Source: an uncultured Planctomycetota bacterium (GTDB lineage Bacteria > JAJVIF01 > JAPKYR01 > CAZSPL01). Taken from it: 47,040 nucleotides of DNA. This document shows positions 29,491 to 42,092 of this stretch, in pieces (the stretch's first letter is position 1; each line of letters starts with the position of its first letter). A program made the translations under genes and the position numbers. The notes under the pieces are model-generated. The model searched no databases, had not been told where the DNA came from, and saw nothing but the letters and a program-made list of their open reading frames with translations. The stretch lies in NCBI GenBank assembly GCA_964608735.1, contig CAZSPL010000006.1, forward strand, positions 1 to 47,040, given 5' to 3'.

Positions 29491-30375
29491 TTACGATTTA
29501 TTTTTCAGCGTGTTATAAAATTCAAATGCGTCTTTCGGTTTTGCGTTTTCGTGGACGACCTTCCGCACCGCTTGAATCATCGCGACCGGGTCGTCTGCCT
29601 GGAAGATGTTGCGTCCCATGTCCACCCCGGCGGCGCCTTCGTTGATCGCGCGGTACGCCATGGTGAGCGCGTCAAGCTCGGGAATCTTCTTCCCACCCGC
29701 GATGACGATGGGCACCGGGCATCCGGCGGTGACGGTCTCGAATCCATCCTCGACATAATAGGTCTTCAGATATGTCGCGCCGAGTTCGGCGCACATGCGG
29801 GTTGCGAGGCGCATGTATTTCGCATCGCGCGTCATCTGCTTGCCGACAGCCGTGACCGCGAGCGTCGCGATGCCGACCGAATTTCCCATGTCGACGAGCT
29901 GCGTCATATTGTTGACCGACTGTGTTTCATATTCACTGCCGATGAAAACCTGCACCGCCATCGCGGCGGCATTGAGGCGGATGGCTTCATCGATATCGAG
30001 CGCGATGTGTTCGTTGGAGATGTCGTCCTGGAGGATACTCGGCCCGCCGCTGGCGCGCAGCACGATGCCGCGCGTGTATGTCGGCGGGATTATCGAGCGC
30101 AGGATGCCGCGCGTGAGCATCAGCGTGTCGGCATACGGGATGAGCGGGAGGATGGTGACGTCGATACGTTCGAGTCCCGTGGTGGGGCCCTGAAAATAGC
30201 CGTGGTCGAACGCGAGCATCACGGTGCGTCCGCTCGCGGGGTTGAAGATGTTCGACATGCGGTTCTTCAGTCCCCAGTCGACGTTGTTCAGTCCCTTGAG
30301 GAAGAAGGATTCGCTCTTCGCGGGGATGTCGGTGTAGAAATTTTTCTCTTCCCGGGCGCCGTCGATATCTGCCAT
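29491..30375 (-). CDS. lsrF: LsrF-type class I aldolase family protein (3-hydroxy-5-phosphonooxypentane-2,4-dione thiolase-like; DhnA/FbaB superfamily)
   Basis: AAGGAGG RBS. Aligns end to end with my recollection of E. coli LsrF, with long identical blocks: [75 protein letters not shown]. Confidence 0.88.
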
Positions 30376-30516: not shown

Positions 30517-32544
30517 TTACCACAATCCGTTGTCGAGCAATTTCATCAGGAAGGCATCCTCTTCGCCGTTTGAAATGAATTCCGAAATACCCTCGCCGTT
30601 GTCGAGGTCGATTTCGTTGGTGAATGTCCCGACGAAGAAAATTTCGCCCCGCGCGTTCAATGCGATATCCCCGGCGAAATCATCCCCATCGCCGCCCCAT
30701 GTTTCCATCCACAGGTGATTGCCGAGCGGGTCGAACCTTGTGAGGAAGATATCACTCGCGCCGTTGGATGTGTACATTTCGGTATCCGGGCCCGTGTCCA
30801 GATCGACTTCATCTTGAAAACGGCCCGATGTGTAAAGGTCCCCGCTGCTGTCGACCGCCATGAAATGAGCTGAAAGAATATCGGTACCCATCTCCGAATT
30901 GAACCAGATGCGGGTCCATTGATAATGCCCGTCCGAGTCGTAGCGGCATATGTACGGGCTGTCGAAGAAACCCGAGGTATAGATGTCCTCGCCGGGACCG
31001 GGGTCGAAATCGGCGTCATACATGAATGAACCCGCGACATAGACATCGCCGGATGAGCCGGCCGCGACATTCATTCCCCATGCATTGCCGGTGTCGCCCC
31101 AATTTACGCCCCACATGTAATCGCCGTCGAGATCGAATTTGCTGAGGTACGCATTGCCGTCGTAGCTTTGGCATGTGTGTTCATCGACGCCCGCACCGGG
31201 ATCAAGGTCGACCGTTTTATTGAGTGCTCCCGTAATGTAAATGTATGCGGAGCCGTCATACGCCGCCGTCCTTGTGTTGGTATGAGCGTTTGTGCCTCCC
31301 CATGTGAGCGTCCAGATTTGTCCGCCGCCGGGATCGAATTTGCTCAGGAAGGCGTCCTCAAAACCGATGGGTGCCCGCTCATCGACACCGGGACCCGGAT
31401 CGAGGTCGATGGCGCCGTAATAGGTGCCGCATAAGTAAAGGTCGTCGGCGCCGTCCGTGCAAAGGCCGTACGCGACATCCTGCATGCTGTTTCCCCATAC
31501 CAGTACCCGTTGATAGTTACCGGAGCTGTCGTATTTGCAGACATAGCCATCGCCCCATGTACCTTCCTGCGTGTACGAGTCCACGCCGGGGCCGGGGTCG
31601 AAATCGACCGTGCCGATGAACTGGCCGCCTATGTAGACATCGCCCATGGAATCGACGGCGATTGCGTTCACCGGCGTACGTCCACCGCCCCATGTGCGAG
31701 CCCAGAGGAAATTCCCTTCGCCGTCGAACTTGCTGATGAACGAGTCGTATTCTCCCTGGACCGTGTGCTCATCGATGCCGGGACCGGGATCAAAATCGGT
31801 CATTGAGGTGAATATTCCCGCCACGTAGATATTGCCGGTGCCGTCGGTCGCGACGCAGTCCGGGAAATCCGAGCCCTCCCCACCCCATGTGACGGCCCAT
31901 CCGGGAAGGATGATATTCTCGATGATGATATCTTTCGTCTTCTCGACAGGGCCGTAGTTGTCGGATGTCACCACGGCCTTTATTTCCACCGGCGTATCGG
32001 CATTGACTTCGCCCGCGGTAAAAAGAGTGGCGGGCGATGCGGGGCTTTCAAACAATCCCGCGCCGGGAGGACTGCATTGCCACTCGTAAACAATGCCGCT
32101 GTCGCCCTCAGCCGATACGCCGAACTCACCCGATGTGTTCTCTTCGAGCGCATCCGGGCCGTCGATGTCGCTTACCGCGAGAAGCGAAGTATCGATTATC
32201 CTGACATCCCGGGTTTTGATTACGGGCTCGAATTCATTTGCCGAAACGACGACTCTTAGTTGTATGGGGGTATCGGAAGTCACCGTTCCCGCCGTAAAGA
32301 TTGTCTTCGCTCTGTCGGGATTCTTGAATCGCCCGGCGGAAGGCGGATTGACGGTCCAGAAGTATCCGACATCCGTGCCGGTGACGGGATGGATAAAATA
32401 GGTCACGCTGGAATACTCATCGATTTCGGCGGGGCCTTCGATGGCGCCGACGACGGGGATTTTGCCCCCGTCGCATGCCCACAAGCCCGCGCAAGGGAGC
32501 AGTATGGCCAGGGACAGTAGCAGCAGCCTTGATACCCTACACAT
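30517..32544 (-). CDS. SBBP-type seven-bladed beta-propeller lipoprotein with two N-terminal Ig/PKD-like domains
   Basis: Start at ATG 32544, with GGAGG 6 nt upstream. MCRVSRLLLLSLAILLPCAGLWAC lipobox. Two roughly 95-aa repeats (GP-E-DE..., ...TAG-V--DTP-----VV-S-----V-KT-D--I). Then seven repeats of W..TWGG...D....A.D..G..Y..G.F....DFDPGPG.DE.T..G..D.F..K.D..G. Confidence 0.8.
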   Translation of the reverse strand: MCRVSRLLLLSLAILLPCAGLWACDGGKIPVVGAIEGPAEIDEYSSVTYFIHPVTGTDVGYFWTVNPPSAGRFKNPDRAKTIFTAGTVTSDTPIQLRVVVSANEFEPVIKTRDVRIIDTSLLAVSDIDGPDALEENTSGEFGVSAEGDSGIVYEWQCSPPGAGLFESPASPATLFTAGEVNADTPVEIKAVVTSDNYGPVEKTKDIIIENIILPGWAVTWGGEGSDFPDCVATDGTGNIYVAGIFTSMTDFDPGPGIDEHTVQGEYDSFISKFDGEGNFLWARTWGGGRTPVNAIAVDSMGDVYIGGQFIGTVDFDPGPGVDSYTQEGTWGDGYVCKYDSSGNYQRVLVWGNSMQDVAYGLCTDGADDLYLCGTYYGAIDLDPGPGVDERAPIGFEDAFLSKFDPGGGQIWTLTWGGTNAHTNTRTAAYDGSAYIYITGALNKTVDLDPGAGVDEHTCQSYDGNAYLSKFDLDGDYMWGVNWGDTGNAWGMNVAAGSSGDVYVAGSFMYDADFDPGPGEDIYTSGFFDSPYICRYDSDGHYQWTRIWFNSEMGTDILSAHFMAVDSSGDLYTSGRFQDEVDLDTGPDTEMYTSNGASDIFLTRFDPLGNHLWMETWGGDGDDFAGDIALNARGEIFFVGTFTNEIDLDNGEGISEFISNGEEDAFLMKLLDNGLW

Positions 32545-32593
32545 AACCAGCCTCCGGAATTCGAGTACTTCAAATATACCACCAAACAAACCG

Positions 32594-32650
32594 AAAAGCA
32601 GGGAGTTGCGAACGACGCCTTAAGAACACTCGGTGACTGTCCCTACTTTT
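32594..32650. repeat. Degenerate copy of the palindromic repeat family
   Basis: The right arm CGGTGACTGTCCCTACTTTT (32631-32650) matches the reference arm, and the stop codon CTA (32643-32645) of the 492-aa gene lies inside it. The left arm is reduced to AAAAGCAGGGA (32594-32604). Confidence 0.5.
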
Positions 32651-34121
32651 CCGGGAACTTCAGAAGGAATGCATCGGGTACGGGAGGCGACCATTCAGGG
32701 TTTCTCGGGCTTTCCCATATGGGCTTGTCGATAATCTGGACAATACCCGTCGCATAGATGTTGTTCGTTGAATCGAGCGCGATGTCGAACGCCGCTTCGT
32801 TCCTGTTCCCAATCCACTGCCCCGCCCAGAGGAATTCACCGGCGGGATTGAATTTGCTGATGACGACATCGAGGTCGGTATCGAGACGATATTCGCCATC
32901 GCCGGGATCGAGGTCGACCACTCCCCGCGCGGAGGTGCAGGCATAGACATTGCCCAGGGCGTCGACGGCAAGCGCGCGCGCTTCGATAAAATCATCCCCT
33001 CCCCAGCTCAGGGTGCGGATATAATTGCCCTCTGAGTCGCGGCATGTGAGGTATACGCTCTTTATCCCGCTGCTGTAGTGAATATCCATCTCGCCGCCGA
33101 TGTTGAAATCGATCGGGTCCTTGAACGAGCCGATGACGTATACACGACCGTCGCCCGACACGGCGACGTCCGCGCTCAACTCGTCGCCGTATCCGCCCCA
33201 CGTGCGCCCCCATTCGTATTCGCCGTCCGAATCGAGCTTGACGAGGAATACATCGCTCTTCGCGAATGATGTGTGCGCGTCGGTGCCCGCGCCGGGGTCG
33301 AGGTCGATTGTCGGCGATGAAAAATTACCGGTTACATAAACTCCGCCCGACTTATCCACGGCGATTTTCCTTGGATAATCGGCCCAATCGCCGCCGAACG
33401 ACCGTCCCCACAGGTAGCCGCCGTCCGATGCGAGTTTCAATATGAATATATCGGCGGTGCCGTTGGAGGTGTGTTCGTCGACGCCGTCCGATGGGTCGAG
33501 GTCGATCGTATCCTCGAAACTCCCGGTGATGCGTATCTCGCCGGAAGCATCGACATCCACCGCGAGGCCGTTATCATATCCCGGAGTTCCCCAAGTGTAT
33601 GCCCATTGGAAGATCCCGTCGCCATCGAATTTGGACAGGAATATATCGGTCTGTCCCGACGCGGAGACTTCGAAGGAGCCTTCGCCGGGGTCGAAATCGA
33701 CGAGGCTGGAGAAATTGCCGACGACATATACGCCGCCTTCATCATCGACGGCGACATCATAGCCGCTGTCGCCGAGCCAGTACCCCTCGCCGCCCCAGGT
33801 TCGCGCCCATTGGTAGTTGCCGCCTGAATCGAATTTGCTGAGGTACGAGTCGCTGCCGTCATTTTCCGAGGTTGCATGTATGTCCTCGCCATCGGACGGG
33901 TCGAAATCGGTTTCGCCCGAGAAGTCGCCGGTGACGTAAACGTTTCCGCTGTCGTCGATTGCAAGCTCGATGCCCTCGTCGTACCCGCTATCGCCCCAGA
34001 TCTTCACCCAGTCCTGTGTAACCGCGGGAAACATGTAATCGCTTGTGGAGCATCCAGTTGAAACCGCGAAGAGAAGGAGAACGATCGCCGGGAGGATGAA
34101 GAGTCGTTTGAACATTCGCAT
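32643..34121 (-). CDS. SBBP-type beta-propeller lipoprotein
   Basis: AAGGAG RBS and MRMFKRLFILPAIVLLLFAVSTGC lipobox. Six to seven blades carry the same W.R.[WF]GG / D[FL]DP.[DP]G.D.H.S / D.FL.K.D..G pattern. Confidence 0.85.
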   Translation of the reverse strand: MRMFKRLFILPAIVLLLFAVSTGCSTSDYMFPAVTQDWVKIWGDSGYDEGIELAIDDSGNVYVTGDFSGETDFDPSDGEDIHATSENDGSDSYLSKFDSGGNYQWARTWGGEGYWLGDSGYDVAVDDEGGVYVVGNFSSLVDFDPGEGSFEVSASGQTDIFLSKFDGDGIFQWAYTWGTPGYDNGLAVDVDASGEIRITGSFEDTIDLDPSDGVDEHTSNGTADIFILKLASDGGYLWGRSFGGDWADYPRKIAVDKSGGVYVTGNFSSPTIDLDPGAGTDAHTSFAKSDVFLVKLDSDGEYEWGRTWGGYGDELSADVAVSGDGRVYVIGSFKDPIDFNIGGEMDIHYSSGIKSVYLTCRDSEGNYIRTLSWGGDDFIEARALAVDALGNVYACTSARGVVDLDPGDGEYRLDTDLDVVISKFNPAGEFLWAGQWIGNRNEAAFDIALDSTNNIYATGIVQIIDKPIWESPRNPEWSPPVPDAFLLKFPEK

Positions 34122-34300
34122 TTGATTCTCCTTCCGCGAGGATGAGCATATCCTATAAATATATCACCGGAGCGGGTTTCGTGAGGGGGCAGATTAAATA
34201 TAGCATATGTGTAGGGGATGTGCCATTCCGGATAGGAGGAAGGCACGCCCATTCTCGAAGACTCGAATTGGGCGTGGCACCCGGGCTGGTAATCCGGTTC

Positions 34301-34753
34301 TCAGGGAACCGGCACATCGAGTATTGTTATCTTCTTTTTCACAACCACCGGTTCGAACTCGTCTGAGGTGACTATAGCAGTAATGATGACCCCGGTGTCT
34401 TCCGTGACTTCATGCGCAGAAAATGATCTCCAGCAGGGGTCCGTGTCTATGCTTTCTCCAGACGGGAATCCGCCTGCAGACGAGAATCCACCGCCCGAGA
34501 AACTGTTTGATGCGAACCACTCTGAAAAGGATTCGAGAGTGCCCGCCCACTGAGGCTCGCACGACCAGGTGCATTGAATATTAGTGCCGGATACCTGGAC
34601 TTCATAAAACTTGAAACTCCCCTCATTAATCTTGTCCGGGCCGGAAATATCGCTCACGAACGGAGTAAGCCCGCCCGCGGAGCATCCAAGCGCGAAACTC
34701 ATCATAACGAAAACGAATCCCGCAATGATGATACCGGTAGTTTTTTTAATCAT
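34301..34753 (-). CDS. Small lipoprotein consisting of one Ig/PKD-like domain, related to the N-terminal repeats of 30517..32544
   Basis: Start at ATG 34753 after GGAGG. MIKKTTGIIIAGFVFVMMSFALGC lipobox. VSDISGPDKINEGS...C-W-C-P-WAG...EDTGVIITAIVTSDEFEPVVVKKKITILD parallels VSDIDGPDALEENTS...YEWQCSPPGAG...ADTPVEIKAVVTSDNYGPVEKTKDIIIEN. Confidence 0.65.
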   Translation of the reverse strand: MIKKTTGIIIAGFVFVMMSFALGCSAGGLTPFVSDISGPDKINEGSFKFYEVQVSGTNIQCTWSCEPQWAGTLESFSEWFASNSFSGGGFSSAGGFPSGESIDTDPCWRSFSAHEVTEDTGVIITAIVTSDEFEPVVVKKKITILDVPVP

Positions 34754-34871
34754 TATCGCCTCCCCAGCGAAGTTAAATGAAGTATAGAATTGAAGCTCAC
34801 TGACGGCAATCATCGGGTGGTAAAGATGATGTCAGTCTTATGTTGCGGGATTCGCAGTCCCTTTAACAGGA

Positions 34872-34898
34872 AGACAGGTGAATGTCCCTGCTTTTTTT
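34872..34898. repeat. Degenerate half-copy of the palindromic repeat family
   Basis: AGACAGGTGAATGTCCCTGCTTTTTTT compares with the reference AACAGGTGACTGTCCCTACTTTTTT. It overlaps the stop codon (34897-34899) of the DUF1847-like gene. Confidence 0.45.
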
Positions 34899-35478
34899 AC
34901 TCGAACTGGCGTTTGATGTATTGCACATAGACCGCGGCGGCGGGGTTGTGGCCGAGCACGCGGTCCTTCGCGATGAGGGTGGTTACCGGCGCCGCCGAAT
35001 GCATGGTGAACAGCGCGTCGTGACCCACGCACAACCCGCAGATGACATTCAGCCCGCAGCCCGCGTCGTTGAGCATCTTCGCCTGGCCAACCGGGTTGCA
35101 CATCACTTCGATATCTTCATCGGGATGAATCTGCTCCAGCGCGAATTCCTTCTTGGCGATGCCGCAATTCTTGCAGCAGATGGAGACGACGTCGAAATGC
35201 CGCGAGAGGATTTCGGCGACCGCCCCGGCTTCCGATGCCAGCCCGATGCAGAACGCGAGGCCGATTTTCTTCACGCCGAGTTCTTTCGCGAAGTAGATGA
35301 TTTCGCCAAGGCGGTTTTCCTTGCGGTAGTGGCGCGCCTCGATTGCCGATGCCGCCCTGAAGAGCGCGTCGATGCGTTCGTCGCGGTACATCCCGCGCAC
35401 CTCATCGGCGACGCCGTAGCAGTCCTTCCCGTTTTTGCATTCCTTCGTTCCGCACTGGGCGCACTTCGCATCGGGCAT
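34897..35478 (-). CDS. Cysteine-rich metal-binding protein, DUF1847-like
   Basis: AAGGAG RBS. N-terminal C-x2-C-x4-C-x5-C cluster (KCAQCGTKECKNGKDC) and later CC-x2-C, C and C-x2-C groups in a roughly 190-aa protein, as I recall for DUF1847. Family call is from memory only. Confidence 0.6.
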   Translation of the reverse strand: MPDAKCAQCGTKECKNGKDCYGVADEVRGMYRDERIDALFRAASAIEARHYRKENRLGEIIYFAKELGVKKIGLAFCIGLASEAGAVAEILSRHFDVVSICCKNCGIAKKEFALEQIHPDEDIEVMCNPVGQAKMLNDAGCGLNVICGLCVGHDALFTMHSAAPVTTLIAKDRVLGHNPAAAVYVQYIKRQFE

Positions 35479-35492
35479 GATGTCGCTCCTTT

Positions 35493-35682
35493 AAAAAAGT
35501 AGGGACAGTGGGCCTGTTAAAAAGTCGGGTAGCGCGTATCTATTCGCACTCTTGTGCGACGGCTTAGCTGTGATGCGCGCATCATTCCTCGCTGCGCTCG
35601 GAACTCCCGTAAAGCGGGAGATAGATACGCGCTACCCGAACGTATGAAATATATTTTCAACAGCCCCACTGTCCCGACTTTT
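35493..35682. repeat. Composite nested palindromic element (outer arms belong to the repeat family; inner 18-bp perfect inverted repeat plus two small hairpins)
   Basis: Outer arms are AAAAAAGTAGGGACAGTGGGCCTGTT (35493-35518) and AACAGCCCCACTGTCCCGACTTTT (35659-35682), with 2 mismatches. Inner arms are CGGGTAGCGCGTATCTAT (35526-35543) and ATAGATACGCGCTACCCG (35621-35638). Small hairpins lie at 35544-35559 and 35604-35620. The element fills the whole gap between the aldolase-II stop and the DUF1847 start. Confidence 0.8.
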
Positions 35683-35683
35683 C

Positions 35684-37096
35684 TTATTGCGTCTCCGGTT
35701 CGTAGAATTCCACGGGCGGGGCGTCGTTCAGGCGATGCGCGAGCGCGACGTCGAGCCGGAATCTCGCGATTGCCTCTCCCGACGACACATGATGCGCCGC
35801 CTGTTCGAGGGTCACGTTCCCGACTCCAATCGCGCCGATTCCCGCGATGAAACACGCCCCCTTGTGCAGGCGGAGCATGTCGAGGACGGCATCATAAGGC
35901 GCGTTCGAGTTGACCAGTCCCACGCGCGGATTGAGATAGACCGCTTCGGCATCGATGGGCTTGACGACCGGATGTTCCGCGCGGCTCGAATAATCGATGG
36001 AGACTGAATTGGGATCGGTGAGGGCATCGATGCCGAACCGCTGGGCGATGAGGGCCATCGATTCGGCCGATGCAAGCGGGCTCATTGTAATCATGCACGC
36101 CTTGTTGTTGGTATCACGATAAATCGTCTTGTGAAGCGCGAGCTCATAATCGTCATCGTCACCGGGTGCGATGGGGATACGCATTATGGATATTTCCAAT
36201 CCCTCCGGGGCCGACGCAAGCGGGCAGTAGAGCATCTCGCCCTCGGTAATCATCTCGCTCATAGAGCCGGTGCCGTAGGGCGAAATCGCCTGGTAGAAAT
36301 TGAACTGCGCGCGCTCCTTGAATGCATCGATCGTCGCGTTGTCCTTCGTATCATACCGGCCCATTTCACCGGGATTGAAACCTTTCACTTTTTGAGGATA
36401 GATTGATTCTCTGCCTTCCCTCCGGATGCGTCGCGCGACGGCGGTCGTGTCGACGCCGCGGAACCGGGCGTTCATGAGGAGTTTGGCGGATGCATCGACG
36501 AGGGTCAACACGTGCAGGCATTCTTCGAGCGATGCGCCGCGGGCGAACGGCCCGTGTCCCTTGACGAGGGTGACACTGTTGTCGGCGAGGTATTTCGGGA
36601 TACGCTTCTCCATCTCGATGGAGCCGACTGGTTCGAGATATGTTCCGGACGGGACTTTGCCCAAAAGCGCCGCGCCGATGAAGTCAACCGGTTGGAAGAT
36701 GAATTCGTCGGTGCCGTCGACTTCGCCTTCATATATGAGGAAATTCTGTTTCTCCTTCGAATCGAACGACACCGAAATCGCCGAGCGGTAATGCGCATGG
36801 ATTGCCGCTTCGACTCCGGTCAGGCTCATGATTCGGCGGTGTATGGTGGATTCGGTCGACGCGCGCGCATCGCCCCAACTCACACGCGAGAATTTCAGCG
36901 GTACGATGTCGCTCCTGATAAGCGCGCCGATTTGCGCCCCCGACGCGGTGAGGTGGAATGTGTCGCGGTCTACGGGATCGCGCATGCCGATGTTGCCGCT
37001 GTGGGTATTGTTTCCGAGCGTGAGCATTATCGCGCGCCCGATGTCGCGCATCAGCGGGAAAATCGATTCGACGGGATTTTCAGGGCATACGTTCAT
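35684..37096 (-). CDS. Tandem class II aldolase/adducin-domain protein (intact N-terminal domain, degenerate C-terminal domain)
   Basis: The N-terminal domain matches FucA-type motifs: HSGNIGMRD (compare GNVSVR), LTASGAQ, AAIHAHY (H-x-H metal ligands) and LVKGHGPFARGASLEECL (compare HHGLIA...LEKAL). The second half is aldolase-II-like in length and pattern but lacks H-x-H. Its ATG overlaps the aor stop (ATGA at 37094-37098). Confidence 0.75.
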   Translation of the reverse strand: MNVCPENPVESIFPLMRDIGRAIMLTLGNNTHSGNIGMRDPVDRDTFHLTASGAQIGALIRSDIVPLKFSRVSWGDARASTESTIHRRIMSLTGVEAAIHAHYRSAISVSFDSKEKQNFLIYEGEVDGTDEFIFQPVDFIGAALLGKVPSGTYLEPVGSIEMEKRIPKYLADNSVTLVKGHGPFARGASLEECLHVLTLVDASAKLLMNARFRGVDTTAVARRIRREGRESIYPQKVKGFNPGEMGRYDTKDNATIDAFKERAQFNFYQAISPYGTGSMSEMITEGEMLYCPLASAPEGLEISIMRIPIAPGDDDDYELALHKTIYRDTNNKACMITMSPLASAESMALIAQRFGIDALTDPNSVSIDYSSRAEHPVVKPIDAEAVYLNPRVGLVNSNAPYDAVLDMLRLHKGACFIAGIGAIGVGNVTLEQAAHHVSSGEAIARFRLDVALAHRLNDAPPVEFYEPETQ

Positions 37097-39150
37097 CAGG
37101 GTCTCACGTCGTTAAGGAATATTTCCCACGCGGGACGCATCCTCAAGCCCTTGAAATCAAATATATCACTAAGCCCGAGTTCGTCAAGGGTCGCGTCGGT
37201 GGGATGTCCGTTTTCATCCCAGCCCATCGCGGCGTAATACTCGGCGCGCATCGCGGCGAATTCATCGCGGTCGCAGACCATTTCTTTTCCCTCGACCATT
37301 ATCGGCTCGTTGTAAAATCTCTCCGGAAGCCGGTCATCGTCTTTGTTCATCCCGCACAGGATGTTGAACATGCGTTCGAGGGTGATGGTCCGACGCGCCG
37401 CCTTTTCGAGGTCGCTCGAGTTGTAATCAAGCCCGGTGACGTCATTGAACATATTGGCGAACTCATCGAGGGTCACGGAGAATCCGGCGAACGCGCATAC
37501 GCCGAGGATGTCATAGGCGGTGTTGTGATAGGCGGCATTCCTCGCGACCAGCGCGGCGCCTTCGGCCTTGGTGCCGGGGAATTCGCCATAGCCCGCGCAG
37601 AACGCAATCGGCGCGGAATATCCGCCTTGCAGGTGGCATGCGCCTCGCGCGCTGAGCATATATGAGAGGGCCTGCGTCCATGTCGCGCGCGGGTCGTATG
37701 CCGGCATCTCCATTCCCTTGACGGTCATCGCGCATTCGGGATGCCCGTAGCGTTTGGCGAGACGCATCGCGCCCTGGGCTATGTATCTGCCAATTTCATG
37801 TTCGAGCGTAAATTTATTCGTTTTCAAATCATCTTTATAATTGAAGGTAGATTTTATTAACGGAATAAGGCATTTCGTATTCCCGAACACCGGTTTGCCA
37901 TGCTTCCCGACGAAATCAGCGCAGTCGTCGATGAGCATTGCTTCATCGGGGGTTCGTTCTCCCTCGGACTTCGCGCTCACGATTTCATATATTTCCATCA
38001 GGGTCGCGATGGTGCCACCCATGGAAATCGTATCGAAGCCGTAACGGTTGCAGAGGTAATTCGCGCGGGTGATTATATCGAGGTCGTAGATATCGAGATT
38101 CGCGCCGAGGAGTGATACAGTTTCGAATTCCGGCCCCTCGCCCGATTCGGTGACATCGCCGCTTGCCCCGATGATTTGCGTACGGCGCGTGCATCCGATG
38201 GGGCAGTTGTAGCATGCCGCGCGTTTCACTTTCACTGACGGGTGATCGAGAAATGCTTCGCCCCTTATCCGATTGAGCTTGTCGGGGTCGTGGCAGTTGT
38301 CCTGAAAATTGCGATGGATGAGTTCGTCATACTGCGCGAGCATTCCCATCAGGCCGTTGGTTCCCATAGATGAAAGTATCCCGAACTGTTCCGGCGGTTT
38401 GGTGAGTTTGCCCATGCGAAGTTTCGCGAGCGCCTTGTATACCGAGCCGGAGATATTTTTCGGCTTCAGCATATCGGGATGCGCGGTTTCAACCTGCTTC
38501 GAGCCTTCGACCACAATGGCGAAGATAAATTTCGATGCGAACACCGCGCCGCCGCCGCCTCGTCCGAGCGCGCGTCCGCGGTCGTTGATAATTGCGGCGA
38601 TAGGGGATTTTTGCCATCCCGCTGCGCCGGTGGTCATCACTTTCACCCCGCGGCCGTATTTTCTTTCGATTGCATTTGTGGTCTTTTCGACAGAGCCGAA
38701 AATCGAAATCAACGGATACTCGAACCGCACGCCGTTCTCATCGATGTGCAGCTCGACAAAGTCAGCCGGTTTGCCTGTTATCACGAGGGCATCATAACCG
38801 GCACGCTTGAATTCAACTCCCCATTTCCCGCCGGAATCAGATGAGCCGATTCCGCCGGTGAGCGGTGATTTGAACTCGGCGTGGTATCGCGCGCACGTGG
38901 GAACGGGCGTGCCGTTCAGCGGCGATGTCGCGAACACCAGCACATTGTCGGGGCTGAGGGGATCAATCTGGGCGATTGGATTCTCGTATTCATCTCGCTG
39001 CTTGAGTATATAACTCATAAGCAGCGCAGTACCGAGCCCGCGTCCGCCGATGAACATCGATGCAAGTTCCGGCGGCGTGGGATAGCGCCGCCACGTTTTC
39101 GTCGTGAGGTCGACTTCGAGGATATTTCCCATGTAACCTTTTGGAAGCAT
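37096..39150 (-). CDS. aor: Tungsten-containing aldehyde:ferredoxin oxidoreductase family protein
   Basis: N-terminal GNILEVDLTT...FIGGRGLGTALL is the typical AOR N-domain. The [4Fe-4S] ligand motif CYNCPIGCTR is present. A length of 684 aa fits the family. Start may be 39150 or Met 39132. Confidence 0.88.
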   Translation of the reverse strand: MLPKGYMGNILEVDLTTKTWRRYPTPPELASMFIGGRGLGTALLMSYILKQRDEYENPIAQIDPLSPDNVLVFATSPLNGTPVPTCARYHAEFKSPLTGGIGSSDSGGKWGVEFKRAGYDALVITGKPADFVELHIDENGVRFEYPLISIFGSVEKTTNAIERKYGRGVKVMTTGAAGWQKSPIAAIINDRGRALGRGGGGAVFASKFIFAIVVEGSKQVETAHPDMLKPKNISGSVYKALAKLRMGKLTKPPEQFGILSSMGTNGLMGMLAQYDELIHRNFQDNCHDPDKLNRIRGEAFLDHPSVKVKRAACYNCPIGCTRRTQIIGASGDVTESGEGPEFETVSLLGANLDIYDLDIITRANYLCNRYGFDTISMGGTIATLMEIYEIVSAKSEGERTPDEAMLIDDCADFVGKHGKPVFGNTKCLIPLIKSTFNYKDDLKTNKFTLEHEIGRYIAQGAMRLAKRYGHPECAMTVKGMEMPAYDPRATWTQALSYMLSARGACHLQGGYSAPIAFCAGYGEFPGTKAEGAALVARNAAYHNTAYDILGVCAFAGFSVTLDEFANMFNDVTGLDYNSSDLEKAARRTITLERMFNILCGMNKDDDRLPERFYNEPIMVEGKEMVCDRDEFAAMRAEYYAAMGWDENGHPTDATLDELGLSDIFDFKGLRMRPAWEIFLNDVRP

Positions 39151-39153
39151 TAT

Positions 39154-40506
39154 TTATCCGGCGTCCATTCTACCACGCAGCTTCGCGCCTTCCTCCTCGA
39201 AACCGGGTTTGCCCAGAAGCGCGAACATGTTCCGCTTGTACACCTCGACCCCCGGCTGGTCGAACGGGTTGGTGCCCGCGAGGTAGCCCGTAAGGGCGAT
39301 GGAATATTCGAAGAAGTAAATCAGCCATCCGAGATGATACGCGTCGAGCTTCGGGATGTGTATCGCGAGATTCGGGCACCCGCCGTCGGCATGGGCCATT
39401 CGCGTCGCGTCCTCGGCGGTCTTGTTGATATCGGCGATGCGGCGTCGGGCGAGATACGACAACCCGTCGTCGGCATCGGTGCCTTTCATTTCGGGAATCG
39501 CGAGCGCGGATTCGCCTTCGTCGATGGACAAAAATGTCTCGAATAAAATCCGCGGGCCGTCCTGTATCCACTGCCCGAGTGAGTGCAGGTCGCGCGAGAA
39601 TGAGGCTCCCGCCGGGAAAAGGCCCGAATGCTGTTTGCCGTCGGATTCACCAGCGAGTTGTTTCCACCATTCGATGAACTGCTCGATTCGCGGCTCGAAT
39701 GCGGCGAGGAGTTCGATGGGGATTTTTTTTGCGAACATGATATGGCGTATCGCGGCGTAGAACATGGCGGGATTGCTTTCGATGCCGCTTTCCGCGCATG
39801 CCCGGGCGCAATCGGTTGCCCCATCGAGAAGCGCGTCGATGTCGATACCCGCATAGGCGAGGGGGAACAATCCGACGGGGGTGAGTACGCTGAACCGTCC
39901 GCCGACATCGTCGGGAACGATGAACGACTCCCATCCCTCGGCGTCGGCGAGTTCCCTCAGCGCGCCTTTCGCGGCGTCGGTGGTGGCGACGATAAGCCGC
40001 CGGGCATCCGCGCCACGCTTTTCCAATGCTATCCTCAGCAGCCTGAACGCGATCGAAGGCTCGGTGGTGGTGCCGGATTTGCTTATCACGTTGATGCCGA
40101 ACCGCGAATCACCGAGTGATGTCATGAGGTCGGTGAGATAGTGCGCCGACATGTTGATGCCGGCGAATTTCAATGGATAACGCGCATCGGGCGGGCGGAG
40201 GGCTTCATAGCAGGCGCGCGAGCCGAGGTATGAGCCGCCGATACCGATGACGACGAGGGTGTCGGTGTCGCGCCGGAGTTTCGATGCTGCGTCATGAAGG
40301 CGCGCGAGTTCGCCGGGGGGATTCATGGCGGACGGGTCGAGCCATCCGAGGAAATCCGCGCCCGCGCCGGTCTTTGATTGAAGCAGGCGCGCGGCGTCAT
40401 TGAGCTTGCCGGTGAGGGCGGATATCTCGTCGCCGGTGATGTGGCTCCGCATGAGGGATGCGTCTATGCGAATGTGATTACCATCGAAAGCGCGGATGTA
40501 GTTCAT
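39154..40506 (-). CDS. pgi: Glucose-6-phosphate isomerase (short, roughly 450-aa bacterial type)
   Basis: DTLVVIGIGGSYLGSRA and INVISKSGTTTEP sugar-isomerase motifs, plus C-terminal PFDQPGVE-YK. Start is ATG 40506 (GGAGGGG 5 nt upstream); the track start 40509 is a TTG one codon earlier. Its stop is only 3 nt from the aor ATG. Confidence 0.9.
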   Translation of the reverse strand: MNYIRAFDGNHIRIDASLMRSHITGDEISALTGKLNDAARLLQSKTGAGADFLGWLDPSAMNPPGELARLHDAASKLRRDTDTLVVIGIGGSYLGSRACYEALRPPDARYPLKFAGINMSAHYLTDLMTSLGDSRFGINVISKSGTTTEPSIAFRLLRIALEKRGADARRLIVATTDAAKGALRELADAEGWESFIVPDDVGGRFSVLTPVGLFPLAYAGIDIDALLDGATDCARACAESGIESNPAMFYAAIRHIMFAKKIPIELLAAFEPRIEQFIEWWKQLAGESDGKQHSGLFPAGASFSRDLHSLGQWIQDGPRILFETFLSIDEGESALAIPEMKGTDADDGLSYLARRRIADINKTAEDATRMAHADGGCPNLAIHIPKLDAYHLGWLIYFFEYSIALTGYLAGTNPFDQPGVEVYKRNMFALLGKPGFEEEGAKLRGRMDAG

Positions 40507-40558
40507 CAAGTCCCCTCCGGGAGATTTCAGGATGTGGATATTGTACTAAATTCCGAGG

Positions 40559-40653: not shown

Positions 40654-40751
40654 GATAGCTGTCGTAGCACTTATTGGTGACCATGCGATGACGCTTTAAT
40701 CCCCGAAAAATGTTAGATTATCGGTATAGATTTCCGATAGCAGAGGAAACG

Positions 40752-42092
40752 ATGAAGAAAAATCCGGGAATTACCGAGATCCTCCTCCTTGCGTGTATTG
40801 TTGCGATTTTCGTTTTCAGCGGATGCAACGGGAAGCCCGCCGGGGATGACGGGCAGAAGCCCGCGAAGCCCGGCACCGATGATTCATCGGACGGGACCGC
40901 GAAAGCAGCATCGGCGTTTGCCAAAGGGCACGATTATTTCATCTTCGAGTTCGGCAACTGGGGCGGAACTCTCGGCAATACACCATCGTCCGGCGGCGAT
41001 ACCACGCTGAATGTCATCGATGCCGAGACCGGGAAATGGGCGTGGTGGGAGGACACGGTGCAGGGACGTCGTCAGATGCTTTCCCCCGACGGCTCGATGA
41101 TATTGTATGCCGACGTTCCCGAGTCGAAGGAACAGCTTGTGATAAGGCTCACCGACAGGCTCACCGGCGCAGCCAACTGGGAAACATATATCGACGCCGC
41201 CGGGATGAACTGGTCGACGCGGATAGAGAATACATACTGGGCGCTGGACAAGGGGCTTATCGTGGTCGACATCAAATCGGTTTTCTATGCCGGGCGGAAA
41301 CCCGACCCCACCGGGCGTTCCGTGCACCAGTTGTGGTGGCTGGTTTCATTCGATGCCGAAACCGGCGAACAGGTCGCGCGCTATGATGTTATCTCCGAGG
41401 AAGCGAAGGGCGATTCGAGCGCGCCTATCTTTTCGCATGGGCAGTATGCGGGCGGGCGGATATTCCTCAACATTCCCGGATACCCGATCAACGACTTCTC
41501 GCCGTATGCGAGTATGGATGTCGCGACGAAATTCGATATATACGGGATAGATGTCGTCACCGGTGAAGCGCTCAAGGTCGATATGCGTGGATTGCTCGGC
41601 ACGCCCGCATCGGCGAGATTTTATGTCAACGACGCTGCGACGAGCATCATCGCGCTCGTGGAAGACCTCGACGAAGAGAACGACCCGCGCCCGCAGGGGG
41701 GGTCGATAGTGAAGATCGATATCGCGTCGGGGGAGTGGATGCCGATACTCGAAGCGGACAGTAAATCGGTGTATGCACTGCGCGGGGCGACGCCCGACGG
41801 GAGCGCGATATTATATACGAAACATCAGCTGACCGAAGCCGCCTTCGATTCAAGCCACATGGTTATGTATCTCGACACCGGCCGGACGGTGCAACTTCCC
41901 ATCCAGGGACTGCTTAACCAGCTGTGGATAAGCCCGTCGGCGAAATATGCCGCGTTCGCCGACCTTCTGCGCCTGAAGGTAATCCAGCTCATCGACATTG
42001 ACAGCGGCGAGATGAAGGAGATAGCGCGCATGTCGGATATCGGCGCGCCGCGTCCAATAGGATTCCTCGGCGGCCTCGGCAACGGCCAGTAA
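40752..42092 (+). CDS. PD40/TolB-like beta-propeller lipoprotein
   Basis: Start at ATG 40752 (the track start 40710 is unlikely). MKKNPGITEILLLACIVAIFVFSGC lipobox. Repeats of the PD40 type: SPDGSMILYAD, TPDGSAILYT, SPSAKYAAFAD. Confidence 0.7.
   Translation: MKKNPGITEILLLACIVAIFVFSGCNGKPAGDDGQKPAKPGTDDSSDGTAKAASAFAKGHDYFIFEFGNWGGTLGNTPSSGGDTTLNVIDAETGKWAWWEDTVQGRRQMLSPDGSMILYADVPESKEQLVIRLTDRLTGAANWETYIDAAGMNWSTRIENTYWALDKGLIVVDIKSVFYAGRKPDPTGRSVHQLWWLVSFDAETGEQVARYDVISEEAKGDSSAPIFSHGQYAGGRIFLNIPGYPINDFSPYASMDVATKFDIYGIDVVTGEALKVDMRGLLGTPASARFYVNDAATSIIALVEDLDEENDPRPQGGSIVKIDIASGEWMPILEADSKSVYALRGATPDGSAILYTKHQLTEAAFDSSHMVMYLDTGRTVQLPIQGLLNQLWISPSAKYAAFADLLRLKVIQLIDIDSGEMKEIARMSDIGAPRPIGFLGGLGNGQ

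What the first reader, a model, noticed from the sequence alone, without database searches (positions are those of the whole stretch)
35684..40506. Translationally coupled pgi - tungsten AOR - class II aldolase operon
The pgi stop and the aor ATG are 3 nt apart, and the aor stop and the aldolase ATG overlap (ATGA). Linking a glycolytic isomerase to a ferredoxin-dependent aldehyde oxidoreductase and a FucA/RhaD-like aldolase is not a standard bacterial arrangement. One reading is that the aldolase splits a (deoxy)ketose phosphate into DHAP plus an aldehyde (lactaldehyde or glycolaldehyde type). AOR would then oxidise that aldehyde directly to the acid with ferredoxin. This would be a bacterial counterpart in spirit to the archaeal modified glycolysis that uses glyceraldehyde-3-phosphate:ferredoxin oxidoreductase (GAPOR). 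The N-terminus (FIGGRGLG) looks AOR/FOR-like rather than GAPOR-like, so the substrate is open. A DUF1847 Cys-rich protein follows and could act as an electron or metal partner.
Basis: partly seen in the sequence, partly recalled or inferred. Interest (0 to 1): 0.6.

Follow-up and report, generated by a model that had tools for sequence, protein, structure and literature searches.

The report
Tungsten-type AOR paired with tandem aldolase
An uncultured bacterium carries a widely conserved gene pair, a tungsten-type aldehyde oxidoreductase followed by an unusual double-domain sugar-phosphate aldolase, which most likely splits phosphorylated rhamnose or fucose and burns the toxic lactaldehyde with ferredoxin; the glucose-6-phosphate isomerase gene in front of it is a local accident.

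Summary
All three genes are real and tightly packed on the minus strand: pgi (39154-40509), an AOR-family pterin/[4Fe-4S] oxidoreductase (37096-39150) and a 470-aa tandem class II aldolase (35684-37096). The pgi-AOR gap is 3 nt. The AOR/aldolase overlap is 1 nt (TGATG), not ATGA.

Only the AOR-aldolase pair is conserved.
- 72 of 78 loci holding the tandem aldolase, from about ten phyla, have this AOR clade directly upstream.
- 4 of 4 AORs picked by AOR similarity alone have the aldolase downstream.
- pgi is present in 0 of 78 loci and DUF1847 in 1.
- The linked AORs form one clade (support 100), separate from solved AORs.
- In 29 loci the pair sits among L-rhamnose/L-fucose isomerase, rhamnulokinase-type and LutABC genes.

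Best reading: the zinc-bearing N-domain cleaves a deoxyketose-1-phosphate to DHAP plus L-lactaldehyde, and the AOR oxidises that to lactate with ferredoxin. The pgi/GAPOR-like and DUF1847 parts are not.

The case is weaker in this genome: the pair stands alone, and a RhaEW-like gene and MtnA also exist.

No paper I found describes the pair. This scan had already noted it in at least eight other genomes.

The parts
39154..40509 (-). pgi, glucose-6-phosphate isomerase (451 aa from TTG 40509; ATG 40506 is the likelier start). A lineage-specific upstream neighbour, not part of the conserved module.
   Evidence: NF010697 548 bits, above the 443 cut-off. It is the only PGI hit in the own genome. It is absent upstream of the AOR in 78 of 78 related loci. 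The ortholog in the sister genome (78% identity) lies on another contig.
39151..39153 (-). 3-nt spacer (ATA) between the pgi stop TAA and the AOR ATG
   Evidence: Read directly from the sequence.
37096..39150 (-). AOR-family pterin/[4Fe-4S] aldehyde:ferredoxin oxidoreductase, 684 aa. It belongs to the clade that is always linked to the tandem aldolase.
   Evidence: AFOR_N and AFOR_C domains. Best solved relatives are 9g7j, 1aor and 9mqx at E 1e-94 to 1e-89. Alignment to 1aor gives cluster ligands C313, C316, C320 and C552, with E343 and H506 matching Pf Glu313 and His448. These motifs are kept across the clade. The clade has SH-aLRT 100 and a stem length of 1.28.
37094..37098 (-). TGATG junction: the AOR stop TGA and the aldolase ATG share one base
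   Evidence: Read from the sequence. Junctions of 23 nt or less in about 40 of 47 relatives, and a 4-nt overlap in 19.
36392..37096 (-). Tandem aldolase, N-terminal domain (residues 1-235). A complete zinc-type class II aldolase active site.
   Evidence: PF00596. Alignment to T. thermophilus FucA 2fk5 matches E82, H100-x-H102 and H181. G34, N35, G53, E82, H100, H102 and H181 are invariant in 57 sequences. The AF2 model has pLDDT 91.7, and the top fold hits are FucA.
35687..36364 (-). Tandem aldolase, C-terminal domain (residues 245-470). A second aldolase-II fold that lacks the three zinc histidines but is strongly conserved.
   Evidence: AF2 of this domain alone gives pLDDT 93.8. Foldseek top hit is FucA 2flf, E 1e-9, TMt 0.73-0.78. 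T337, S339 and G419-I-G421 stand where the N-domain has the HxH motif and the third His. Mean column identity is 64% over 70 sequences. Sequence-profile similarity to the N-domain is not significant.
35479..35683 (.). 205-nt spacer with a nested palindromic repeat; probable end of the transcription unit
   Evidence: Read from the sequence. Noted separately in the scan. No consensus terminator scored above background.
34897..35478 (-). DUF1847 Cys-rich protein. A neighbour only, not a conserved partner.
   Evidence: PF08901 173 bits. A homologue lies near the pair only in L001, 1 of 78 loci.

Best explanation
AOR (37096-39150) and the 470-aa tandem class II aldolase (35684-37096) form a conserved, translationally coupled two-gene module. 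It carries out the last steps of phosphorylative 6-deoxyhexose (L-rhamnose / L-fucose) catabolism without NAD.

Proposed steps:
1. The N-terminal aldolase domain has the zinc triad H100/H102/H181, the acid/base residue E82 and the phosphate-binding residues G34-N35 and G53. It cleaves L-rhamnulose-1-P and/or L-fuculose-1-P into DHAP and L-lactaldehyde.
2. The zinc-less but highly conserved C-terminal domain completes a pseudo-oligomer and may dock the AOR.
3. The AOR, with pterin and [4Fe-4S] sites intact, oxidises L-lactaldehyde to L-lactate and reduces ferredoxin.
4. LutABC-type enzymes then oxidise lactate to pyruvate. In this genome they are encoded with RhaI and rhamnulokinase on contig C33.

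pgi is co-transcribed here only by a lineage-specific rearrangement.

**Shown:** gene integrity, conservation of the pair, a separate AOR clade, conserved catalytic residues, both folds, and the rhamnose/fucose/Lut context in relatives.

**Inferred:** the substrates, the direction of the reaction, the electron acceptor, the metal (W versus Mo) and any physical complex.
For: **Pair conservation**
- 72 of 78 loci have a full-length AOR (45-72% identity) directly upstream on the same strand. The five assessable exceptions are divergent paralogs at 39-43% identity.
- In the reverse test, 4 of 4 AOR homologues chosen by AOR similarity alone have a 466-472-aa Aldolase_II gene downstream.
- Identities of the two proteins to the window co-vary across loci (r = 0.96, 60 loci).
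- Junctions are tight.
- The linked AORs form one clade (SH-aLRT 100), separate from five solved AORs and from unlinked paralogs of this phylum.

**Context**
- RhaA (708 bits), FucI, rhamnulokinase-type FGGY kinases (about 370 bits on TIGR02627) and LutABC lie within 8 kb in 29 loci.
- Examples include AOR-aldolase-RhaA-kinase operons with LutCBA and no other aldolase in the cluster.
- In one such genome (G172) the tandem aldolase is the only PF00596 hit.

**Own genome and phylum**
- The own genome has RhaI - rhamnulokinase - LutC - LutBA with no aldolase in the operon.
- The neighbouring family of the same phylum has RhaI - RhaD - RhaB. Its RhaD scores 220 bits on NF002963, above the 170 cut-off.
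- MoaC and MoeA are present, so the pterin cofactor can be made.

**Catalytic residues and folds:**

**Literature:** the solved-AOR relative WOR1 of E. limosum oxidises lactaldehyde in vitro (PMC11725836). RhaEW shows that fusing the aldolase and lactaldehyde-oxidation steps is a known solution (PMC3870299).
Against: - No biochemical data exist for any member of either clade.
- The window lies in a derived subclade of 22 rows whose pairs mostly stand alone. Only L015 and L016 there have a kinase and a FucI-family isomerase nearby.
- The tandem aldolase is not the only candidate aldolase here. The sister genome has a RhaEW-like bifunctional aldolase/SDR (872 bits), and this genome holds its first 128 residues at a contig end.
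- Several other pair-bearing genomes also have conventional class II aldolases, one of them 3 kb from the rhamnulokinase.
- The zinc triad and Glu are shared with non-aldolase members of the superfamily, so the residues alone do not prove aldol cleavage.
- No ferredoxin or flavodoxin gene is conserved beside the pair in my loci.
- No Moco/Tuco riboswitch was found.
Confidence: 0.6

Rival explanations
1. The module has the same architecture but a different substrate. In the stand-alone subclade that includes this window, the aldolase would cleave another ketose-1-phosphate: 5-deoxyribulose-1-P or 5-methylthioribulose-1-P of the DHAP shunt, or a ribulose/xylulose-1-P type substrate. The AOR would then oxidise acetaldehyde, methylthioacetaldehyde or glycolaldehyde.
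For: - The genome has a bona fide MtnA (TIGR00512 430 bits, cut-off 279) but no MtnB or small Ald2-type aldolase.
- The window's subclade has mostly lost adjacency to rha/fuc genes.
- A RhaEW-like enzyme could already finish the rhamnose pathway.
- ALD2 gives weak hits to MtnB and ribulose-1-P aldolase models, 42 and 35 bits.
Against: - No mtn or 5-deoxyribose gene lies beside the pair in any of the 78 loci.
- Where context exists, it is rhamnose/fucose/lactate.
- The active-site residues are invariant across both subclades.
- The subclade is nested within rha/fuc-linked clades, and two of its members keep a kinase and a FucI-family isomerase.
- MtnA sits on another contig beside a HAD hydrolase.
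Confidence: 0.2
2. The tandem protein is not an aldolase. It would be either another superfamily chemistry (dehydratase, epimerase, decarboxylase) or a non-catalytic subunit that the AOR clade needs for stability, maturation or electron transfer.
For: - It reaches no equivalog cut-off. The best is PRK08660 at 100 bits against 203.
- The superfamily includes MtnB, AraD, OtnC and decarboxylases with the same metal triad.
- Half of the protein has lost the metal site yet is highly conserved, which suggests a role in protein-protein contact.
- Linkage with one AOR clade is obligate.
Against: - In operons made of isomerase + kinase + this protein + AOR (+ Lut), an aldolase is the one missing step and no other aldolase is present.
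- The N-domain keeps the FucA-type Glu and the phosphate-binding Gly-Asn and Gly.
- The closest folds are FucA enzymes.
Confidence: 0.12
3. One reading: pgi, AOR and the aldolase form one functional unit of a modified glycolysis, analogous to archaeal GAPOR, with DUF1847 as an electron or metal partner.
For: The pgi-AOR gap of 3 nt and the 1-nt AOR/aldolase overlap imply co-transcription in this organism.
Against: - pgi is found next to the pair in 0 of 78 loci, and DUF1847 in 1 of 78.
- In the sister genome pgi is on another contig, and the AOR follows a divergent promoter region.
- pgi is the genome's only PGI.
- The GAPOR model scores 36 bits against a cut-off of 1300.
Confidence: 0.03

Closest known systems
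RhaEW (YuxG of B. subtilis, Caur_2283 of Chloroflexus aurantiacus): bifunctional L-rhamnulose-1-P aldolase / L-lactaldehyde dehydrogenase (Rodionova et al. 2013, PMC3870299)
   Same: It joins a class II aldolase step to immediate oxidation of L-lactaldehyde to L-lactate. It is encoded in rha loci, and lactate-oxidising genes (lldEFG = LutABC) sometimes belong to the same regulon.
   Different: RhaEW is a single polypeptide that uses an NAD-dependent short-chain dehydrogenase. Here there are two coupled genes, the oxidising partner is a pterin/[4Fe-4S] AOR that presumably reduces ferredoxin, and the aldolase is a tandem with a metal-less second domain. This genome and its sister also carry a RhaEW-like gene.
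E. coli phosphorylative pathways RhaA-RhaB-RhaD and FucI-FucK-FucA, followed by AldA or FucO
   Same: The same predicted reaction sequence. The zinc ligands, catalytic Glu and phosphate-binding residues of FucA are conserved in the N-domain, and FucA structures are the best fold matches.
   Different: FucA and RhaD are homotetramers of single 215-275-aa domains. AldA is an NAD-dependent ALDH and FucO an iron alcohol dehydrogenase. The tandem aldolase reaches no FucA, RhaD or RhaE equivalog cut-off.
Characterised AORs: Pyrococcus furiosus AOR (1aor), 9g7j, 9mqx, Aromatoleum AOR (8c0z), E. limosum WOR1
   Same: The same two Pfam domains, the same cluster and pterin motifs and the same catalytic Glu and His. 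WOR1 oxidises lactaldehyde among many aldehydes.
   Different: The window's enzyme belongs to a separate, long-stemmed clade. It has insertions at residues 51-60, 229-238 and about 397-450, plus a C-terminal extension. It has an obligate gene partner. The known AORs are broad-spectrum enzymes without a dedicated pathway.
GAPOR (glyceraldehyde-3-phosphate:ferredoxin oxidoreductase) of archaeal modified glycolysis
   Same: An AOR-family enzyme that replaces an NAD(P)-dependent step of sugar catabolism with a ferredoxin-linked one.
   Different: Not a member: 36 bits on NF040818 against a cut-off of 1300. The predicted substrate is non-phosphorylated lactaldehyde from deoxy-sugars, not glyceraldehyde-3-P.

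Membership tests
AOR family (tungsto/molybdopterin aldehyde:ferredoxin oxidoreductases) | AFOR_N plus AFOR_C domain architecture | tested here: met
   PF02730 scores 193 bits and PF01314 scores 327 bits, both far above their cut-offs.
AOR family (tungsto/molybdopterin aldehyde:ferredoxin oxidoreductases) | Four Cys ligands of the [4Fe-4S] cluster (Pf C288, C291, C295, C494), the two pterin-binding D/NxxGL(D/C) motifs and the catalytic Glu313/His448 | tested here: met
   Alignment to 1aor gives C313, C316, C320, C552, N368..D373, D547..C552, E343 and H506. These are conserved in 90% or more of the linked clade.
AOR family (tungsto/molybdopterin aldehyde:ferredoxin oxidoreductases) | Tungsten (rather than molybdenum) in the active site; ferredoxin as the acceptor | not testable with these tools
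   Only the cofactor-synthesis genes MoaC and MoeA were confirmed in the genome.
GAPOR | Score above the NF040818 equivalog cut-off | tested here: not met
   36 bits against a cut-off of 1300, covering residues 46-147 only.
Canonical AOR clade (P. furiosus AOR sensu stricto) | Groups within the clade of characterised AORs | tested here: not met
   The 67 aldolase-linked AORs form their own clade (SH-aLRT 100, stem 1.28), outside 1aor, 9g7j, 9mqx and 8c0z.
Class II (zinc) aldolase/adducin superfamily | PF00596 domain and fold | tested here: met
   88 bits. Foldseek places both the whole protein and the C-domain alone on FucA structures.
Class II (zinc) aldolase/adducin superfamily | Three His metal ligands plus a catalytic acid (FucA H92, H94, H155, E73) | tested here: met
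   The N-domain has H100, H102, H181 and E82, invariant in 57 sequences. The C-domain lacks all three His.
FucA / RhaD / RhaE orthologous groups | Score above an equivalog cut-off; single-domain subunit forming a homotetramer | tested here: not met
   The best model is PRK08660 at 100 bits against 203. No FucA, RhaD or RhaEW model passes. The protein is a 470-aa tandem.
FucA / RhaD / RhaE orthologous groups | Cleavage of L-fuculose-1-P or L-rhamnulose-1-P to DHAP and L-lactaldehyde | not testable with these tools
   Inferred only from operon context.
Glucose-6-phosphate isomerase (for the upstream gene) | Score above the NF010697 equivalog cut-off | tested here: met
   548 bits against a cut-off of 443.

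The most novel reading that the evidence does not exclude
The AOR and the tandem aldolase form a physical complex. The metal-less second aldolase domain and the clade-specific AOR insertions would build a docking surface or tunnel, so that lactaldehyde passes from the aldolase zinc site to the tungstopterin without being released. This would be a ferredoxin-linked counterpart of RhaEW or the DmpFG aldolase-dehydrogenase, and the first AOR-family enzyme with an obligate catalytic partner and a single dedicated physiological substrate.
Probability: 0.3. Interest if true: 0.78.

Novelty: new variant of a known kind. Interest (0 to 1): 0.6.

Why it matters
The physiological substrates of bacterial AOR-family tungstoenzymes are mostly unknown, and the characterised ones are treated as broad-spectrum aldehyde scavengers. 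Here one well-delimited AOR clade is tied gene-to-gene to one aldolase family and, in many genomes, to rhamnose/fucose and lactate-oxidation genes. That gives a concrete and testable assignment: L-lactaldehyde:ferredoxin oxidoreductase.

It would also add a third way of disposing of lactaldehyde in anaerobes, beside NAD-dependent oxidation and reduction to propanediol (with or without microcompartments). This route yields low-potential electrons. In addition, it defines a new tandem architecture in the class II aldolase superfamily.

For genome annotation, it means the pgi neighbour should not be read as part of a pathway.

Tried and rejected
- **pgi as part of the module:** rejected. It is present in 0 of 78 loci, is the only PGI in the genome, and its ortholog in the sister genome is on another contig.
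- **DUF1847 as a partner:** rejected, 1 of 78 loci.
- **[quoted passage not shown]:** the PF00596 scan first suggested this. I withdrew it after tblastn found the N-terminal 128 residues of a RhaEW-like gene at the end of contig C331.
- **Promoter region:** alignment of the divergent promoter regions of the window and L001 showed no homology.
- **RNA and signal scans:** Rfam at gathering thresholds found nothing in the window, so no Moco/Tuco riboswitch. The promoter/terminator scan did not exceed shuffled expectation.
- **N-domain versus C-domain by sequence:** hhalign was not significant. The duplication rests on fold.
- **Conserved small ferredoxin or flavodoxin genes:** small-ORF clusters near the pair were all antisense shadow ORFs.
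- **Co-occurrence statistics in Acidobacteriota:** not feasible. Only 1 of 151 sampled genomes carries the aldolase.
- **Full AOR-family phylogeny with FOR, WOR4, WOR5 and GAPOR:** not possible because reference sequences were not obtainable. Similarity ranking and a five-reference tree were used instead.
- **Literature:** seven searches found no paper describing the pair.
Full report
**Observation.**
The minus strand of 35684-40509 carries three intact, tightly packed ORFs.

- The first is a glucose-6-phosphate isomerase: NF010697 548 bits, cut-off 443.
- The second is a 684-aa AOR-family protein: AFOR_N 193 bits and AFOR_C 327 bits.
- The third is a 470-aa protein with a class II aldolase domain: PF00596 88 bits, two stretches.

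The pgi stop and the AOR start are 3 nt apart (TAA-ATA-ATG).

DUF1847 follows after a 205-nt spacer that contains a palindromic repeat. No Rfam family, promoter or terminator signal stands out.

**What is conserved.**
A scan of 185,579 species-level genomes with an alignment of the 470-aa protein gave 78 loci. They come from Acidobacteriota, Planctomycetota, Desulfobacterales, Spirochaetota, Bacteroidota, Ignavibacteriota, KSB1, SAR324, Moduliflexota, Fidelibacterota and Bacillota MAGs.

- In 72 of them a full-length homologue of the window's AOR (45-72% identity) lies directly upstream on the same strand.
- One locus is cut at the contig end.
- The five true exceptions are divergent paralogs (39-43% identity) that sit beside an alpha/beta hydrolase, a transaldolase-like gene and a transketolase.
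- pgi occurs in none of the 78 loci. DUF1847 occurs only in L001, the sister genome.

The reverse test also holds. Four metagenomic AORs chosen by AOR similarity alone all have a 466-472-aa Aldolase_II gene immediately downstream.

Identities of the two proteins to the window co-vary (r = 0.96 over 60 loci). The junction is short in nearly all loci: a 4-nt overlap in 19 of 47 and 23 nt or less in about 40.

In a tree, the 67 aldolase-linked AORs form one clade (SH-aLRT 100, stem 1.28). It is separate from five solved AORs and from the unlinked AOR paralogs of this phylum. The tree was a quick LG+G4 run and long branches were flagged, so the monophyly is more secure than the exact position.

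**The proteins.**
*AOR.* The AOR is most similar to canonical AORs: 9g7j, 1aor and 9mqx at E 1e-94 to 1e-89. FOR scores 6e-61, and WOR5 and BamB about 1e-34. It is not GAPOR-like (36 bits against 1300).

Alignment to P. furiosus AOR shows the following:
- cluster cysteines C313, C316, C320 and C552;
- both pterin motifs;
- E343 and H506 at the positions of Glu313 and His448.

These are kept throughout the clade, which also carries its own insertions and a C-terminal extension.

*Tandem aldolase.* AlphaFold models are confident: pLDDT 91.7 for the whole protein and 93.8 for the C-terminal half alone. Each half is closest to L-fuculose-1-phosphate aldolases. The protein is therefore a true tandem, although the two halves are no longer alignable by profile.

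The N-half keeps the FucA-type zinc histidines (H100, H102, H181), the catalytic Glu (E82) and the phosphate-binding Gly-Asn and Gly. All are invariant in 57 sequences. The C-half has lost all three histidines but is as conserved as the N-half. That argues for a structural or docking role.

The protein passes no FucA, RhaD, RhaE or MtnB equivalog cut-off.

**Context in relatives.**
I clustered all flanking ORFs and annotated cluster representatives. This showed:
- RhaA (708 bits);
- L-fucose isomerase;
- rhamnulokinase-type FGGY kinases (TIGR02627 about 370 bits, always the best model);
- LutA, LutB and LutC.

At least one of these lies within 8 kb of the pair in 29 of 78 loci: a kinase in 22, an isomerase in 18 and Lut genes in 10.

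Typical operons are:
- AOR-aldolase-RhaA-kinase (L026, L043, L045, L062);
- kinase-RhaA-AOR-aldolase (L038);
- FucI-kinase-AOR-aldolase (L039, L046, L051);
- AOR-aldolase-LutABC (L022-L025, L028).

On the P0223 contig every called gene has a Pfam record. There the cluster reads AOR, Aldolase_II, RhaA, FGGY, LutC, LutB, LutA, with no other aldolase. In the genome of L038 the tandem protein is the only PF00596 hit.

Both rhamnulose-1-P and fuculose-1-P yield DHAP and L-lactaldehyde. An enzyme pair that cleaves the ketose phosphate and oxidises lactaldehyde to lactate, feeding LutABC, is the simplest reading of these operons.

**This genome.**
The window belongs to a small phylum with 14 species-level genomes. 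Only this genome and its sister G004 (= L001) have the pair. The nearest relatives of the pair are in Acidobacteriota, so it was probably acquired by transfer.

Contig C33 encodes the following in sequence, with no aldolase among them, and G004 has the same order:
- a RhaI-type rhamnose isomerase (TIGR02635 359 bits);
- a rhamnulokinase-type kinase (TIGR02627 341 bits);
- LutC;
- a LutB-LutA fusion.

In the neighbouring family of the phylum the orthologous genes read RhaI - RhaD - RhaB. The RhaD there is conventional: NF002963 220 bits, cut-off 170. This contrast fits a replacement of RhaD by the pair plus Lut.

The argument is not exclusive, however.
- G004 also has a RhaEW-like bifunctional aldolase/dehydrogenase (NF006194 872 bits). 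This genome holds its first 128 residues (71% identity) at the end of contig C331.
- My earlier result that the tandem protein is the genome's only PF00596 hit is therefore an assembly artefact.
- The genome also has a true MtnA and no MtnB. A role in the DHAP shunt cannot be excluded.
- The window's subclade (22 rows) mostly consists of stand-alone pairs in varied surroundings. Only L015 and L016 keep a kinase and a FucI-family isomerase.
- Other genomes of this subclade usually have a rhamnulokinase-type gene elsewhere (4 of 5), but also other class II aldolases.

**pgi and DUF1847.**
pgi is the only PGI detected in this 92%-complete genome. Its ortholog in G004 (78% identity) lies on a different contig. 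In G004 the AOR follows a 226-nt divergent intergenic region next to the homologue of the window's 460-aa lipoprotein gene.

The rest of the synteny is shared between the two genomes: AOR, aldolase, DUF1847, SBBP lipoproteins and an LsrF-type aldolase. pgi is therefore a lineage-specific insertion into the operon, and a GAPOR-like modified glycolysis is not supported.

Co-expression with a gluconeogenic/glycolytic enzyme is compatible with DHAP being the product. That is speculation.

**Comparison with what is known.**
The module works like RhaEW (aldolase fused to an NAD-dependent lactaldehyde dehydrogenase; PMC3870299) and like RhaD or FucA followed by AldA. It is not a member of any of these orthologous groups, and it uses an AOR-family oxidoreductase instead.

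AOR oxidation of lactaldehyde has precedent in vitro for E. limosum WOR1 (PMC11725836). One MAG paper guesses that AORs detoxify lactaldehyde (PMC9324843).

Seven full-text searches found no description of the AOR-tandem aldolase pair.

Within this scan the same pair has already been reported from at least eight other genomes with the same reading. I reached the reading independently, before consulting those notes. They are not independent evidence.

**Verdict.**

I put 0.6 on the lactaldehyde-forming aldolase plus lactaldehyde:ferredoxin oxidoreductase mechanism for this locus. I put about 0.9 on the narrower claim that the two genes form a conserved functional unit.

Noticed in passing
own genome contig C33 (locus L079 6972-15988): The RhaI - rhamnulokinase - LutC - LutB/LutA-fusion block is followed by a 4Fe-4S dicluster protein, a CCG-domain protein and a 657-aa FAD/pyridine-nucleotide-disulphide oxidoreductase with ferredoxin domains (HdrC/B/A-like). 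Lactate oxidation may be wired to a heterodisulfide-reductase-type or bifurcating module.
   Followed up: partly
own genome contig C331 (locus L106 2-385, minus strand): The first 128 residues of a RhaEW-like bifunctional aldolase/short-chain dehydrogenase run off the contig end. The intact ortholog in sister genome G004 (L104 2816-4936) scores 872 bits on NF006194. A domain scan of the genome missed it.
   Followed up: yes
L069 2319-5974, L074 5713-11437, L078 7962-10138: A divergent subfamily of the tandem aldolase (39-43% identity) in Desulfobacterales is never next to an AOR. It is followed instead by an alpha/beta hydrolase, a transaldolase-like protein and a transketolase, which looks like a different and undescribed sugar-phosphate module.
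   Followed up: partly
window 29491-30375 (minus); L001 10406-11311; L007 11596-12375: An LsrF-type class I aldolase/thiolase (NF006081 491 bits) lies 5-7 kb downstream of the AOR-aldolase pair in the window, in the sister genome and in an unrelated Bacillota MAG. It is unclear whether this is coincidence or linkage through DHAP chemistry.
   Followed up: no
window 35479-35683: The 205-nt spacer between the aldolase stop and the DUF1847 start is filled by a nested palindromic repeat of a family also seen after other minus-strand genes. It probably separates transcription units.
   Followed up: no
window 39130-39150: The public gene call for the AOR starts at the second ATG (678 aa). Conservation of residues 2-6 in homologues and in solved AORs supports the first ATG (684 aa), which creates the 3-nt gap to pgi.
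   Followed up: yes
L051 (labelled uncultured Cytophagia) versus L039 and L046 (Desulfobacterales): The AOR of L051 is almost identical to those of Desulfobacterales MAGs (branch lengths 0.02-0.08), and its flanks share the same FucI-kinase arrangement. The taxonomic label is probably a binning error, or the transfer is very recent.
   Followed up: no
window 30517-34813 and 40710-42092; L001 837-2168 and 6658-10180: The SBBP-repeat lipoprotein genes and the 460-aa lipoprotein flanking the operon are syntenic with the sister genome. pgi is the only gene that differs between the two arrangements.
   Followed up: partly
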